Source: an uncultured Gammaproteobacteria bacterium
GTDB taxonomy: Bacteria; Pseudomonadota; Gammaproteobacteria; UBA9214
Assembly: GCA_963701505.1 (NCBI GenBank)
Contig: CAVOZZ010000012.1
Coordinates: 80,219 to 144,218 of the forward strand
Direction: 5' to 3'
Length of the DNA: 64,000 nucleotides
Shown here: one piece after another, positions 46,540-49,796 of the stretch
Layout: the number at the start of each line of letters is the position of its first letter
Position numbering within the stretch: the first letter of the stretch is position 1
Notes under the pieces: model-generated
Database searches by the model: none
The model's input: only the letters and a program-made list of their open reading frames with translations
Told to the model about the DNA's origin: nothing
Translations under genes and position numbers: made by a program

Positions 46540-47052
46540 ATGAAACATGCTGGCATCTTTTTCGCATTCTTGTTTTTTTGCACTGCTGCACAGGCAAAGC
46601 ACAACAGTGACCACCCCCTGTCTCCCGAGGACTGGAAGGAAGTCATGGAAAAAGTTGTTCTCCTGGAGAACTCTGGTCTCATGCCGACGCTGCTTCCGGT
46701 CATCATGAGCAATAGAGACATACTTCAGCTCACTGATGAACAGATAAATTCATTCCGCGCATGGCGAAAGAACAACTACACACACATGGTAAACGTCATG
46801 AATGAAATTATCGAGAAGATGGTTCAGTTTCGCGTTGAGTCCTTAAGACCAAGCGTCAGCAGTGAACAGCTCATTGCATTTCAGTCAGAAATACAGGGAT
46901 TACAGCGCCGGCTTTTGGTAATAAAACTTTCCTGCAGGGATCTTGTCATGAAAAGTTTCACCACTACACAATGGGAGAACTTTGCATTCGTCGTTTCTGA
47001 CAATCCCAGGCTTGCAAGCCTTATGTCTCAGGACAACCCGGGATCACACTGA
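46540..47052 (+). CDS. Periplasmic CpxP/Spy-like protein (LTXXQ motif)
   Basis: The signal peptide is MKHAGIFFAFLFFCTAAQA. The protein is helical with one LTDEQ (LTXXQ) motif (LQLTDEQINSFRAW). The family assignment is tentative. Confidence 0.55.
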   Translation: MKHAGIFFAFLFFCTAAQAKHNSDHPLSPEDWKEVMEKVVLLENSGLMPTLLPVIMSNRDILQLTDEQINSFRAWRKNNYTHMVNVMNEIIEKMVQFRVESLRPSVSSEQLIAFQSEIQGLQRRLLVIKLSCRDLVMKSFTTTQWENFAFVVSDNPRLASLMSQDNPGSH

Positions 47053-47332
47053 TCTGAGCAAATGCGATGGCTCAATCGTGTATCCGTATCAGGGATGACG
47101 TTAGTGCGAAGCAAACAACAAGATCCGCGCGCTTCAGGACACAGGGTGGTACGGGGAGTATTCAGGCATCAAAGAAGGTTGTGGCAGGATGCCGATCCGC
47201 AGCTATGGAAAACAAGGCCCGTGTTGCCCTGCCAGCGGTGCGGAGACCGTAACAGACTGGAGTGACAGAACTAACTAGCGGCTATGCAACACGGCCCGGT
47301 TTCCCGGACCGTGTATCCTGCTGGACTCAATC

Positions 47333-47674
47333 CTATTCAGGCAGCCTGGGAGGAGGAGGAGTTTGCTCCTTGCCACTTGAGGGATTTACCACGATGGTGC
47401 TTGGCTGGCCGCCATAGCCCGGATAGCCTCCCCAGCCACCATAAGGGCCACCCCAGCCATAGGGGCCACCCCCGTAGGGCCCGTAGCCATAGGGACCATA
47501 GCCCCCGTAGTAACCACGGCCATACCGGTAATAATCATCATCGTCGTCGTCAAACCAGTCACCCGGGTTCATCATGTTGCCCATATTGAAGGCGTGTGCG
47601 ATGTTCGTCACCGCAAGAATTGCCACGCCAAGGGCTGCTGCTGTCGCTACTGAAGTGATTTTTTTCCGATTCAT
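47333..47674 (-). CDS. Secreted Gly/Tyr-rich low-complexity protein, sulfur-globule-protein (SgpA/SgpB)-like
   Basis: A GAGG SD precedes the start. The signal peptide is MNRKKITSVATAAALGVAILAVTNIAHA. The mature part has a DDDDDD run and then YYRYGRGYYGGYGPYGYGPYGGGPYGWGGPYGGWGGYPGYGG. Confidence 0.6.
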   Translation of the reverse strand: MNRKKITSVATAAALGVAILAVTNIAHAFNMGNMMNPGDWFDDDDDDYYRYGRGYYGGYGPYGYGPYGGGPYGWGGPYGGWGGYPGYGGQPSTIVVNPSSGKEQTPPPPRLPE

Positions 47675-47854
47675 TGGCGGTTACCTCACGTTTCTCGTTA
47701 TCTAATACGAACCTGGGTTCGAACAGTTTAAACCAGTATCCGGGCGGATCAACTGTCTCTGCGCACACCTTGAAAGGGAGCCGCCCCGATGCACTTGCCG
47801 GTTAATGATAATCGGCATGCATTTTTTTATTTATTTGGCAACGTTACAATGATA

Positions 47855-47895
47855 TATACAACCATATTGTGTGATTTACAACCATATTGCATGAT
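47855..47895. promoter_or_regulatory. Two tandem 20-bp direct repeats in an AT-rich divergent promoter region
   Basis: TACAACCATATTGTGTGAT lies at 47857-47875 and TACAACCATATTGCATGAT at 47877-47895. They match at 17 of 19 positions with a 20-bp period. They are about 180 bp from each of the divergent starts at 47674 and 48077. Confidence 0.4.
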
Positions 47896-48076
47896 AATGT
47901 TATGAAACGGTGCTCTGGTACCAGGCGCAAGGAAAAAATACTCAGCTGAGCGATCTGCATAATACATTCGCTCAGAATCAGGGAAATGGTGCCCGTTTCG
48001 AATCCTTTATGGAAGGACCATGTGCCAGCAGATTGCCTGGTTTGTGGTGTCAAACAAAACCGCCCGGGGGGTAATA

Positions 48077-48817
48077 ATGAAAAAGCTGCCGCTATTGTTA
48101 ATTCTGATTCTGCCAATCATCTGTCAGGCAGAGGCCTACCAATCGACACTGTTGGTACAAACCGGTCAAATGCGCGAGAGTGATCTCATCGTGCGTACCG
48201 TTACTGACCTGGAAAGCAGCAAGATCTGCCTGGCATTTTATATTCGAACCACCGGCACGAGTCCGGTAATGAATTGTTATGATGCCGTGGGCGGATATGC
48301 CGCCAATATCAATCAGGTCGGGCACTTCAAGGAACAACAGCTGATTGTCCGTAAAATGAAGGATACCGTGAACGATGTGTCTTGCCTGGTGGCTTATGTC
48401 GGCACACCGGGGACCTCACCTTCCATTGACTGCTACAAAAGCAGAAAGTCTGCCACCGATGACCTGGTGCGAAGCGGGCATTTGCGTGAGGGCGACCTCG
48501 ATGTATACCGGGTCATCGACAAGGACAGTACCAAGACCTGCCTGGTTGCCTATGTTGCCACCGGGGGTACCGCACCTTCGCTGAAGTGCTATAACAGTCA
48601 AGCAGGAGACAAGGGTGGCCTGGTGCAGAACAGCTTTTTACGTGAGGGTGACCTCATTGTGCGCAAGATCGTCGATCGGGCCAACAATAAAGAATGCCTG
48701 ATTTCCTATGTCAGTACAGAGGGCACCTCTCCAAGCATCAACTGCTTCGATGTGGAGTCGGTGCCCCCGGCCAGCAGTGCCCCAAAGACATCCATCCCGG
48801 TCACCCCGAATCGCTGA
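48077..48817 (+). CDS. Secreted protein made of four tandem ~52-aa Cys-containing repeats (unrecognised domain)
   Basis: The signal peptide is MKKLPLLLILILPIICQA. The repeat consensus is (L/F)RE.(D/Q)L.V(R/Y)(K/R)..D......CL(V/I)(A/S)YV.T.GT(S/A)PS..C(Y/F), present four times. The C-terminal tail is Pro/Ser-rich. Confidence 0.7.
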   Translation: MKKLPLLLILILPIICQAEAYQSTLLVQTGQMRESDLIVRTVTDLESSKICLAFYIRTTGTSPVMNCYDAVGGYAANINQVGHFKEQQLIVRKMKDTVNDVSCLVAYVGTPGTSPSIDCYKSRKSATDDLVRSGHLREGDLDVYRVIDKDSTKTCLVAYVATGGTAPSLKCYNSQAGDKGGLVQNSFLREGDLIVRKIVDRANNKECLISYVSTEGTSPSINCFDVESVPPASSAPKTSIPVTPNR

Positions 48818-48971: not shown

Positions 48972-49796
48972 TCAGAAACTGGCAGTCACATATAAAACCG
49001 GGCCTTTGTAATCGATATCATATTTGTCTTTTCTGTTAGATTTATTAATCGTCAGATCCATATTAATGTAGTTGTAACCGACACCCACACCAAAATGGTC
49101 GGTCAGACGGTAGTCAAGATTGGCCGCGAGCGTCAGGAGATTACCGTCATAGTCATCGTAATTCAGGCCAAACCAGCCGGCGGAGCCATCCAGCGACAGT
49201 TTCGGTGTAAAGGCATAGGTGCCATAGCCAAGGACATTCGGCAACGGCGCTGTCAGATCGACCGAGTCTGACTGTACACTGCCGCTCGCATTGTTGATGC
49301 CGCCACTGACCTTGAGTTTCGTATCGAACCTCACGAGGTGCACACCAGCACCGATACCAAGTTCGGCACGTTCATTCTTCAGCAAGGAATAACCGACCTG
49401 GGTGATATAAAAGTCCGTTTTGAACTTCGTATCGACGGCCAGAAAACCCGAGGCCTCAATATCTCCAAAGTCCAGATCATCGAAATTCTCACGGACGTTG
49501 CCGTTAACATCCAGACCGAAATAATCGAAGGTAAGACGCCAGCGCTCAGTAAAGCGCCAGCGTGCAGAGAATGCCGCGTTTGTTTCCGTGTCATCAACAC
49601 CCAAATCACTGGTTGTGAGCTTTTCCGTGGGGTCACCCTCGCGCGTGGAACTAAAGCTACCGTCAGCCTTCAGCCAGCTGGCCCCGAGCTTGAAGGTAAA
49701 TTTGTCATCCAGGACGGGATTAAGCGCGTTGCCGGCAGCATTGACCGAGTATGAAAGGACACTTCCAAACAGTAACGCCAATAGTCGTAGTTTCAT
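48972..49796 (-). CDS. Outer-membrane beta-barrel protein
   Basis: The signal peptide is MKLRLLALLFGSVLSYSVNA. The sequence has alternating amphipathic strands and a C-terminal ...GPVLYVTASF with a terminal Phe. Confidence 0.7.
   Translation of the reverse strand: MKLRLLALLFGSVLSYSVNAAGNALNPVLDDKFTFKLGASWLKADGSFSSTREGDPTEKLTTSDLGVDDTETNAAFSARWRFTERWRLTFDYFGLDVNGNVRENFDDLDFGDIEASGFLAVDTKFKTDFYITQVGYSLLKNERAELGIGAGVHLVRFDTKLKVSGGINNASGSVQSDSVDLTAPLPNVLGYGTYAFTPKLSLDGSAGWFGLNYDDYDGNLLTLAANLDYRLTDHFGVGVGYNYINMDLTINKSNRKDKYDIDYKGPVLYVTASF

What the first reader, a model, noticed from the sequence alone, without database searches (positions are those of the whole stretch)
47333..47674. Secreted Gly/Tyr-rich protein resembling sulfur-globule envelope proteins
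SEEN. The 113-aa ORF has a GAGG SD and a Sec signal ending AHA. It carries an Asp6 run, then YYRYGRGYYGGYGPYGYGPYGGGPYGWGGPYGGWGGYPGYGG, and a Pro-rich end.

ESTABLISHED. The sulfur-globule proteins SgpA and SgpB of purple sulfur bacteria are small, Sec-exported and rich in regularly spaced Gly and aromatic (Tyr) residues.

INFERENCE. This is a candidate structural protein of a sulfur-globule envelope, which would mark the host as a sulfur-storing oxidiser. The assignment rests on composition only. No sox or dsr genes lie in this window, although rhodaneses do.
Basis: partly seen in the sequence, partly recalled or inferred. Interest (0 to 1): 0.6.

Follow-up and report, generated by a model that had tools for sequence, protein, structure and literature searches.

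The report
Sgp-like secreted protein with propeller partner
This small exported glycine/tyrosine-rich protein belongs to an unannotated family found only in bacteria that store sulfur globules, and it is always encoded next to an equally unknown secreted partner protein, so the pair probably forms an accessory part of the globule coat, though this has not been shown.

Summary
It is transcribed in three sediment metatranscriptomes.

It is not a member of the known SgpA/SgpB family (Pfam SGP). The genome carries three canonical SGP genes elsewhere, plus an oxidative dsrABEFHCMKLJOPN operon, so the host is genomically a sulfur-storing oxidiser.

The query belongs to an unnamed superfamily. Its members have a Sec signal, then a mature N-terminal module A|F[ND][MF]GNMMNPxxW[FM], then an acidic/Arg block, then disordered Gly/Tyr/Pro repeats.

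All 11 named carrier genomes tested also have canonical SGP, and 5 of 6 carriers in a 401-genome class sample do so against 12% of the rest. All six class-sample carriers (counting the window's genome) and six of the named ones have dsrA.

The query's subfamily ends PSTIVVNP…PPPRLPE. It is coupled one-to-one with a divergently transcribed, secreted orphan protein of 246 aa (four β-propeller-like blades, two Cys each). The whole pair is duplicated in this genome.

The most likely role is an accessory sulfur-globule envelope pair, but this is inferred, not shown. A canonical Sgp transcript is far more abundant.

The parts
47333..47674 (-). Gene for the 113-aa Sec-exported Gly/Tyr/Pro-rich protein (GNMMNP-module family, subfamily with the PSTIVVNP...PPPRLPE tail); the stop codon is 47333-47335
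   Evidence: ORF. 386 homologs. Alignments A1 and A4. RNA contigs with no mismatches.
47591..47674 (-). Signal peptide, residues 1-28 (MNRKKITSVATAAALGVAILAVTNIAHA), with cleavage predicted after AHA
   Evidence: Read from the sequence. Single helix at residues 2-28 in the AF2 model. A28 and F29 are nearly invariant.
47552..47590 (-). Mature N-terminal module FNMGNMMNPGDWF (residues 29-41), the signature of the whole superfamily
   Evidence: P37, W40 and F41 are invariant and G32, N33, M34, M35 nearly invariant in 93 sequences. The same module heads proteins with four different C-terminal designs.
47534..47551 (-). Asp6 acidic block (residues 42-47)
   Evidence: The acidic/Asn block is conserved in position across the family.
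47408..47533 (-). Gly/Tyr/Trp/Pro low-complexity repeat region (residues 48-89), predicted disordered
   Evidence: pLDDT 41-45. This is the only part that aligns to canonical SGP profiles.
47336..47407 (-). C-terminal tail QPSTIVVNPSSGKEQTPPPPRLPE (residues 90-113); proposed docking site for the partner
   Evidence: I94, P109 and P112 are invariant and T93, V95, V96, N97, P98 and E113 nearly invariant. A tail of this kind co-occurs with the partner gene in 15 loci; 44 loci have neither and none has the tail without the partner.
47684..47687 (-). Shine-Dalgarno GAGG, 9 nt before the ATG
   Evidence: Sequence. The RBS region is conserved in the closest relatives.
47279..47705 (-). Approximate extent of the transcript (monocistronic)
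   Evidence: Metatranscriptome contigs X18 47279-47703 and X6 47369-47705, both with 0 mismatches. Contigs carry no strand information, so the direction is inferred from the ORF.
47675..48076 (.). Shared divergent intergenic region between the two genes (402 bp)
   Evidence: It is 72-78% identical at DNA level to the paralogous region on contig C5. No motif is conserved across distant relatives.
48077..48817 (+). Partner gene: a secreted 246-aa protein. It has a signal peptide of about 18-20 residues, then four repeats of about 52 aa that form four-stranded beta blades (residues 26-69, 78-121, 130-173, 182-225), each with two invariant Cys, and then a Pro-rich tail. An upstream ATG at 48020 is probably not used.
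   Evidence: Conserved neighbour in 22 loci at 58-86% identity. AF2 pLDDT 82.4 and pTM 0.75. Only weak beta-propeller fold hits. Only 35 hits among 1.84 billion representative proteins. Transcribed.

Best explanation
**What the gene encodes.** The gene encodes a small periplasmic, intrinsically disordered Gly/Tyr/Pro-rich protein. It is a functional relative (analogue or very distant relative) of sulfur globule envelope proteins, but it belongs to a separate, so far unnamed superfamily.

**The superfamily.** Members share a module placed directly after signal-peptide cleavage (A|F[ND][MF]GNMMNPxxW[FM]). An acidic/Arg block and YGxPYG-type repeats follow.

**The proposed mechanism (inferred).**
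- The N-terminal module is a common targeting or anchoring element.
- The disordered repeat region contributes to the proteinaceous coat around periplasmic zero-valent sulfur.
- In this subfamily, the conserved C-terminal tail (PSTIVVNP...PxP[RK]xP[EQ]-COOH) binds the co-encoded secreted four-blade, disulfide-bearing beta-propeller-like protein. Together they would form a two-protein accessory unit of the globule envelope.

**Shown here:**
- the gene, its export signal, its disorder and its transcription;
- the family and its motifs;
- its restriction to genomes that carry dsr and SGP;
- the one-to-one genetic coupling with the partner, and the duplication of the pair.

**Inferred, not shown:** location on globules, physical binding of tail and partner, and an accessory (minor) role.
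For: 1. **A real family.** There are 386 homologs with invariant non-repetitive positions.
2. **Distribution by name.** The 74 loci among 185,579 species genomes are, wherever the record names more than a class or phylum, from sulfur-oxidising Gammaproteobacteria. These include Thiocapsa, Thiocystis, Thiorhodococcus, Lamprocystis, Imhoffiella, Thiospirillum, Sedimenticola, a tubeworm endosymbiont and Thiogranum. Two MAG records carry discordant labels.
3. **Co-occurrence with canonical SGP.**
   - 11 of 11 named carrier genomes have 2-6 canonical PF17228 genes.
   - In an even sample of 401 genomes of the class, 5 of 6 true carriers have PF17228 against 46 of 395 others, Fisher p = 1.5e-4.
   - 12 of 12 genomes tested have dsrA, 11 of them carriers.
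4. **The own genome** has dsrABEFHCMKLJOPN and three canonical SGP loci, one of them interrupted.
5. **Shared build.** It has the same repeat unit as canonical SGP and the same overall plan: a Sec signal ending AxA, an acidic block, RGYGRGY, YGxPYG repeats and a Pro-rich end.
6. **Size and disorder.** The mature protein is 9.2 kDa and predicted disordered.
7. **The partner.**
   - It is a conserved neighbour of every tail-bearing member with enough flank.
   - The pair is duplicated as a unit on contig C5, with the partner at 82% aa identity.
   - The partner is secreted, confidently folded into 4 x 4 beta strands, and has 8 invariant Cys.
8. **Transcription.** Both genes are transcribed in sediment metatranscriptomes.
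Against: - There is no experimental localisation for any member of this family. [quoted passage not shown]
- The query matches no Sgp model.
- In one RNA sample a canonical Sgp gene has contig depth about 109 against about 3.5-4.6 for the query, so the query is not a major coat transcript. Contig depth is a rough measure.
- One carrier genome (G326, a contaminated MAG) has no PF17228 hit.
- Co-occurrence with sulfur storage is also what any lineage-restricted envelope protein of these clades would show.
- Tail-partner binding rests on gene linkage alone.
Confidence: 0.55

Rival explanations
1. It is a generic periplasmic or cell-surface structural or stress protein of these gammaproteobacterial lineages, unrelated to sulfur globules. 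On this view it is a glycine-rich envelope filler or matrix protein, and the partner is its chaperone or anchor. The association with sulfur storage would be phylogenetic, not functional.
For: - The only Pfam signal is a sub-threshold match to the plant-type glycine-rich protein family GRP (23.2 bits, cutoff 30).
- Its neighbours are envelope genes: an OMP beta-barrel at 48972-49796 and a secreted 170-aa protein at 46540-47052.
- The transcript level is modest.
- The globule proteome of A. vinosum lists no such protein (PMC10386293).
Against: - The family spans several families of sulfur-storing bacteria, including phototrophs, free-living chemotrophs and animal symbionts. It was seen in only 6 of 401 sampled genomes of the class, all 6 with dsrA and 5 of them with SGP.
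- It shares the YGxPYG repeat of true Sgps.
- No neighbour other than the partner is conserved.
Confidence: 0.22
2. The pair is a substrate plus a processing or binding protein. The propeller-like partner would act on the Tyr/Pro-rich protein, for example through peptide binding, cross-linking or turnover, as the propeller domains of prolyl oligopeptidases gate peptides. Alternatively the partner is a lectin-like binder of another ligand and the Gly/Tyr protein is only its tether.
For: - The fold hits are propellers of prolyl oligopeptidases, sialidases and the RSL lectin.
- Gene linkage with a Pro-rich C-terminal tail is strict.
Against: - TM-scores are only about 0.2, and the 246-aa partner has no room for a catalytic domain.
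- There is no sequence relative in PDB or Pfam.
- This reading is compatible with, not exclusive of, a globule location.
Confidence: 0.13
3. It is a periplasmic metal (Cu(I)) handling protein. On this view the Met-rich MGNMMNP motif and the Asp run bind metal ions, as the Met motifs of CopA, PcoC and CusF-type proteins do.
For: Three Met within seven residues, followed by six Asp. That Met-rich motifs bind Cu(I) is my own general knowledge, not tested here.
Against: - No copper-resistance genes are adjacent.
- No His/Met repeats are present.
- The distribution follows sulfur storage, not metal resistance.
- Most of the protein is Gly/Tyr repeat.
Confidence: 0.04

Closest known systems
SgpA/SgpB (CV1/CV2) of Allochromatium vinosum, and the Beggiatoa Sgp ALG67575.1; Pfam PF17228 'SGP'
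   Same: - Sec-exported and small (about 9-13 kDa).
- Low-complexity and rich in Gly and Tyr, with regularly spaced Pro.
- Shares the YGxPYG repeat unit.
- Has an acidic block plus an RGYGRGY stretch and a Pro-rich C-terminus.
- Found in the same genomes.
   Different: - No PF17228 match.
- The mature N-terminus is FNMGNMMNP instead of WWGP.
- It lacks the GDFNFGMSGSGRGYGRG core and the (A/V)P-rich ...APAAPAQ tail.
- It has its own PSTIVVNP...PPPRLPE tail and a dedicated partner gene.
- The transcript is much less abundant.
SgpC (CV3, Alvin_1325) of A. vinosum
   Same: - Similar mature size: 8.5 kDa reported for CV3 (PMC10892978), 9.2 kDa here.
- SgpC is the 'second kind' of small globule protein that coexists with SgpA/B.
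- One depositor annotated a tubeworm-symbiont member of the superfamily as 'sulfur globule protein CV3' (QYZ66959.1).
   Different: - I could not obtain the SgpC sequence, so there was no direct comparison.
- Indirect evidence argues against identity. RefSeq calls the superfamily members of Allochromatium, Thiocystis, Thiorhodococcus and Lamprocystis 'hypothetical protein', although the NCBI annotation of Thiocapsa bogorovii does carry a CV3 name (PMC10892978).
- UniRef labels sibling proteins 'CV1', which shows these labels are driven by composition.
- The best-matching genome of the Chromatiaceae sample (81% identity to the A. vinosum query) gave only one hit to the family query.
SgpD (Alvin_2515) of A. 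vinosum
   Same: - A Sec-exported protein shown by mCherry fusion to sit on globules.
- It is non-essential, and its gene is transcribed on its own (PMC10386293).
- It provides the experimental template for testing this family.
   Different: - SgpD starts with Trp and has two long, confidently predicted helices.
- It is almost confined to Chromatiaceae (PMC10386293).
- The query is disordered and has no helices.
Plant glycine-rich proteins, Pfam PF07172 'GRP'
   Same: A signal peptide followed by Gly/Tyr-rich low complexity. This is the only Pfam model that gives any score (23.2 bits).
   Different: The score is below the gathering cutoff of 30 and comes from composition only. GRP is a plant family with no relation in motifs or context.

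Membership tests
Pfam PF17228 SGP (SgpA/SgpB type) | Match to the family HMM over the gathering score (26.7 bits) | tested here: not met
   No hit at E <= 1. The genome's true members score 35-55 bits in the genome scan, and two of them score 55-65 bits as proteins.
Pfam PF17228 SGP (SgpA/SgpB type) | Mature N-terminus WWG(P/G) and the core motif GDF(N/S)(F/M)xMSGxGRGYGRG | tested here: not met
   The query starts FNMGNMMNP and has no such core. hhalign aligns only 23 repeat columns.
Pfam PF17228 SGP (SgpA/SgpB type) | Sec signal peptide; small Gly/Tyr-rich protein with regularly spaced Pro | tested here: met
   Signal ending AHA. 27% G, 15% Y, 15% P with YGPYG repeats.
Sulfur globule proteins in the functional sense | Physical presence in the envelope of sulfur globules | not testable with these tools
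   This needs globule proteomics or a fluorescent fusion. The only support here is co-occurrence with SGP and dsr.
Sulfur globule proteins in the functional sense | Host forms and oxidises stored sulfur (rDsr system and Sgp genes present) | tested here: met
   dsrA at 636 bits. dsrEFH and dsrC confirmed. Operon order. Three PF17228 loci.
SgpC / CV3 (Alvin_1325) | Sequence similarity to the A. vinosum SgpC protein | not tested
   The reference sequence was not obtainable with the tools. Indirect evidence is negative.
SgpD (Alvin_2515) | Trp-first mature protein with two long alpha helices; restricted to Chromatiaceae | tested here: not met
   The query is disordered with no helix outside the signal peptide. 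SgpD description from PMC10386293.
Pfam PF07172 GRP | Score over the gathering cutoff (30 bits) | tested here: not met
   23.2 bits.
GNMMNP-module superfamily (defined in this report) | Signal peptide followed directly by [FWVM][DN][MF]GNMMNPxxW[FM], then an acidic/Arg block and Gly/Tyr repeats | tested here: met
Partner-linked subfamily (defined in this report) | C-terminal PSTIVVNP...PxP[RK]xP[EQ] tail, plus an adjacent gene for the four-blade secreted protein | tested here: met
   Tail at residues 90-113. Partner at 48077-48817. Association counts are 15 with both, 44 with neither and 0 with the tail alone.

The most novel reading that the evidence does not exclude
The GNMMNP module is a transferable 'globule address' shared by a whole hidden class of sulfur-globule proteins, including members in the model organisms Allochromatium and Thiocapsa. 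In chemotrophic sediment bacteria and tubeworm symbionts, the tail-bearing subfamily recruits a dedicated four-blade, eight-cysteine periplasmic protein to the globule surface. There the partner would either handle sulfane sulfur through its cysteines or control the growth of the coat. This would be a previously unrecognised two-component system of the sulfur globule envelope.
Probability: 0.2. Interest if true: 0.75.

Novelty: new variant of a known kind. Interest (0 to 1): 0.55.

Why it matters
Sulfur globules are a major store of energy and sulfur in phototrophic sulfur bacteria, sediment sulfur oxidisers and the symbionts that feed tubeworms and clams. Yet only four coat proteins have been studied, all in one organism.

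This locus points to a second widespread set of Sgp-like proteins that current annotation either misses or labels inconsistently. These proteins carry a sharply conserved N-terminal module that could be a targeting signal.

The locus also points to an orphan secreted partner protein that is a concrete and testable candidate for a new globule-associated function.

Because members exist in cultivable, genetically tractable Chromatiaceae, the central claim can be tested with published methods (mCherry fusions, globule proteomics).

Tried and rejected
1. **Equating the Chromatiaceae coiled-coil members with SgpD.** Rejected. SgpD starts with Trp, is helical, and is described differently.
2. **Finding the SgpC sequence for a direct comparison.** Not achieved.
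   - The papers gave locus tags only.
   - The Beggiatoa supplement prints canonical Sgps only.
3. **Looking for a conserved RNA leader or promoter motif upstream.** Only the RBS region is conserved among close relatives. The promoter and terminator scans were no better than shuffles.
4. **Checking the pairing from the partner's side.** The contigs carrying the two full-length partner clusters break 90-170 nt upstream of the partner gene, so nothing could be learned.
5. **Fold and sequence searches for the partner.** The fold search gave only weak propeller hits with TM about 0.2, and no solved structure is related by sequence. NCBIfam gave only a negligible chance hit to the partner and nothing to the query.
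6. **The raw 18-nt pattern scan.** It gave 11 positive genomes, but 5 of these genomes, plus one of four hits in a sixth genome, were chance matches in unrelated frames and were removed.
7. **A broad literature search** for Gly/Tyr proteins in symbionts found nothing relevant.
8. **Copper-binding and bacteriocin readings.** Considered and judged unlikely from context and distribution.

Full report
**1. Observation**

- GAGG lies 9 nt before the ATG.
- Residues 1-28 form a typical Sec signal ending AHA. AlphaFold2 models them as a single helix.
- The mature protein reads FNMGNMMNPGDWF, then DDDDDD, then a 42-residue Gly/Tyr/Trp/Pro stretch, then QPSTIVVNPSSGKEQTPPPPRLPE.
- It is 85 aa and 9.2 kDa, with net charge about -5.

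Only 6 of 8,437 long ORFs in the genome have a comparably Gly/Tyr/Trp-dense stretch. I take these to be the six Sgp-type genes found by the composition screen.

**2. A real family, not only a composition**

A search of 5.8 billion proteins found 386 homologs, many of them full-length at 45-95% identity. Those that carry a name are called 'hypothetical protein'.

In 93 aligned sequences, the conserved positions lie outside the repeats:
- P37, W40 and F41 in the N-terminal module are invariant, and G32, N33, M34 and M35 are nearly so.
- I94, P109 and P112 in the tail are invariant, and T93, V95, V96, N97, P98 and E113 are nearly so.

AlphaFold2 with this alignment predicts no order outside the signal peptide (mean pLDDT 53, and 41-45 in the repeats).

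**3. Relation to known Sgp proteins**

- Pfam gives only a sub-threshold composition match to the plant GRP family. NCBIfam gives nothing.
- The Pfam model SGP (PF17228) does not match the query. It does find three loci elsewhere in the same genome (C6, C10 and C7, the last interrupted by a stop or frameshift).
- A fourth SGP-like gene on C7 escapes Pfam.
- Canonical Sgps from this genome, from Thiocapsa, Thiorhodococcus, tubeworm symbionts, Sedimenticola and Thiogranum, and the experimentally supported Beggiatoa protein, all begin A|WWG. All carry a GDFNFGMSGSGRGYGRG-type core and end in an Ala/Pro tail.
- A profile-profile comparison of the two families aligns only 23 columns of the YGPYGYGxPYG repeat.
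- SgpD is a different, helical protein (PMC10386293).
- I could not obtain SgpC for a direct test. Public names for superfamily members are inconsistent ('CV3' once, 'CV1' in UniRef, otherwise 'hypothetical'). RefSeq does not name the Allochromatium member as CV3, which argues against identity with SgpC.

**4. The superfamily and its distribution**

A scan of one genome per species (185,579 species) with the peptide pattern [MF]GNMM[NK]P[GS] gave 74 loci. Wherever the record names more than a class or phylum, the organism is a sulfur-oxidising gammaproteobacterium:
- Chromatiaceae: Thiocapsa, Thiocystis, Thiorhodococcus, Imhoffiella, Lamprocystis, Thiospirillum.
- Sedimenticola and Sedimenticolaceae.
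- A Lamellibrachia endosymbiont.
- Thiogranum.
- MAGs labelled Ectothiorhodospiraceae.

Two MAG records carry discordant labels: L011 'Halobacteria archaeon' and L081 'Alphaproteobacteria'.

All the proteins share the module directly after the signal peptide, but their C-terminal designs differ:
- (a) PSTIVVNP...PPPRLPE, the query's type.
- (b) ...PPPPLPQ, in tubeworm symbionts.
- (c) a coiled coil ending WPSAPAFRPMNQY, in Chromatiaceae including an A. vinosum strain.
- (d) long GGPGGYGG arrays, some with the module repeated twice.

Co-occurrence with sulfur storage:
- All 11 named carrier genomes tested have 2-6 canonical SGP genes, and none of the 14 control genomes does.
- In an even sample of 401 genomes of the class, I first removed chance matches of the DNA pattern. 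That left 6 genomes carrying the family.
- Five of those six also have SGP, against 46 of the other 395. Fisher p = 1.5e-4.
- All 12 genomes tested have dsrA: 11 carriers plus a same-genus genome without the pattern.
- Within the GTDB family that contains Thiorhodococcus drewsii, 60 of 121 genomes have a homolog.

**5. The host**

The genome (2.56 Mb, 83% complete) has dsrA at 636 bits. It is followed by dsrB, dsrEFH, dsrC and genes in the order and size of dsrMKLJOPN. This is the oxidative layout known from A. vinosum.
- No soxB reached the cutoff.
- DNA and RNA runs that hold the stretch come from estuarine, marine and freshwater sediments.
- A same-genus genome is deposited as an 'uncultured Ectothiorhodospiraceae bacterium'. 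This follows from matching contig lengths.

**6. The partner gene**

This was the main new finding.

The gene transcribed divergently from the query (48077-48817, 246 aa) is the only conserved neighbour. It occurs in 22 loci at 58-86% identity, so it is better conserved than the Gly/Tyr protein itself.

Its presence tracks the C-terminal tail of the Gly/Tyr protein. Among loci with enough flank:
- 15 have both the tail and the partner.
- 44 have neither.
- None has the tail without the partner.
- The four apparent exceptions are explained. Three are frameshifted nanopore assemblies. In the fourth locus the partner lies beside a second family member that does have the tail.

In tubeworm-symbiont genomes the partner lies in tandem upstream. 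In the window's own genome the whole pair is duplicated on contig C5, with the partner at 82% aa identity and the Gly/Tyr paralog equal to P0040.

Structure and relatives of the partner:
- It has a signal peptide, four repeats of about 52 aa with two invariant Cys each, and a Pro-rich tail.
- AlphaFold2 gives a confident model (pLDDT 82, pTM 0.75) of four four-stranded beta sheets.
- Foldseek finds only beta-propeller proteins, at TM about 0.2.
- No solved structure is related by sequence.
- Among 1.84 billion representative proteins only 35 match, and only two clusters are full-length. The partner is therefore an orphan family.

**7. Expression**

Exact-match RNA contigs cover the whole query ORF in three independent sediment metatranscriptomes.
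- One contig of 425 nt spans 47279-47703, which suggests a monocistronic mRNA.
- The partner gene is also covered.
- In run X6 the canonical Sgp gene on C6 has an exact contig of depth about 109, against flanks of 3-11. The query has depth 3.5-4.6, like its neighbours.
- In X18 the query region is the deepest part of the 7-kb stretch examined (7.5-9.4, including contigs of related organisms), and its exact-match contig has depth 6.3.

Contig depth is a poor measure of expression. Still, the query is clearly not the dominant Sgp-type transcript.

**8. Interpretation**

The most economical reading is that this is an Sgp-like protein of a separate, unannotated superfamily. It works in the same compartment and most probably on the same structure as canonical Sgps.
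- The N-terminal module would be a shared targeting or anchoring element.
- In this subfamily, the C-terminal tail would be the docking site for the co-encoded four-blade protein.

I put this at 0.55. The family, its motifs, its distribution and the gene pairing are shown. The globule location and the physical interaction are inferred.

The main rival (0.22) is a lineage-restricted envelope protein unrelated to globules. A substrate/processing-protein reading (0.13) and metal binding (0.04) are less likely.

**9. Novelty**

The general kind is known: exported Gly/Tyr-rich proteins of sulfur-storing bacteria.

I found three features described in no family library or paper I could search:
- the GNMMNP module;
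- the subfamily tail;
- the obligate partner.

Hence 'new variant of a known kind'.

Earlier notes of this scan describe other Gly/Tyr proteins of sulfur oxidisers in pump and ParA clusters. This locus has a different context. I used one note (e1-4467235) only as a lead that SgpC-like proteins are of the (GYPGYGGWG)n type, which resembles C7:267533 in this genome and not the query.

Noticed in passing
genome contig C5:77805-79286 (outside the window): A second copy of the whole divergent pair. The partner lies at 77805-78542 (-) with 82% aa identity. A 128-aa Gly/Tyr paralog lies at 78900-79286 (+), ends QQRTIVVNP...PPPRLPE and is identical to P0040.
   Followed up: partly
genome contig C7:30786-31197 (outside the window): A canonical SGP gene interrupted by an in-frame TAG, with the C-terminal part continuing in another frame. 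It is either a pseudogene or an assembly error in a repetitive gene.
   Followed up: no
genome contig C7:267533-267934 (-) (outside the window): A fourth Sgp-like gene. It starts A|WWG, has (GYPGYGYGG)n repeats and an AP-rich tail, lacks the SGP core, and is missed by Pfam and NCBIfam. It may be the SgpC-like type.
   Followed up: partly
window 46540-47052 (+): A 170-aa protein with a signal peptide and no family match, convergent with the query gene. It is not conserved next to homologs elsewhere.
   Followed up: partly
window 48972-49796 (-): A 274-aa outer-membrane beta-barrel protein (Pfam OMP_b-brl, just over cutoff) immediately downstream of the partner gene. It is not a conserved neighbour.
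   Followed up: partly
L060, L079, L082 (uncultured Gammaproteobacteria and Chromatiaceae MAGs): In some family members the GNMMNPSRWMGG module occurs twice in tandem before long GGPGGYGG arrays. This suggests the module is an autonomous unit.
   Followed up: no
L043:5968-7107 (Sedimenticolaceae MAG chromosome): A giant 379-aa member with about ten QGYGYGAPMMQGPQYQ repeats followed by MGGMQGQQG repeats.
   Followed up: no
L011 (CAVYIJ010000001.1): A 428-kb contig labelled 'uncultured Halobacteria archaeon' carries the gammaproteobacterial gene pair at 64-70% identity, so the record is probably mislabelled or mis-binned.
   Followed up: no
L011, L015, L030; L128-L131: Long-read MAGs show frameshifts inside the Gly/Tyr repeat genes. 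Short-read contigs carrying partner genes (L128-L131) end 90-170 nt upstream of the partner gene, possibly because an adjacent repetitive gene broke assembly. This family is therefore probably under-counted in public assemblies.
   Followed up: partly
G223 (same-genus genome), loci L123-L125: One genome carries three family members of three different C-terminal types: a repeat-only type, a long type with a coiled-coil segment, and a PAIVVNP...PPPRPPE type.
   Followed up: no
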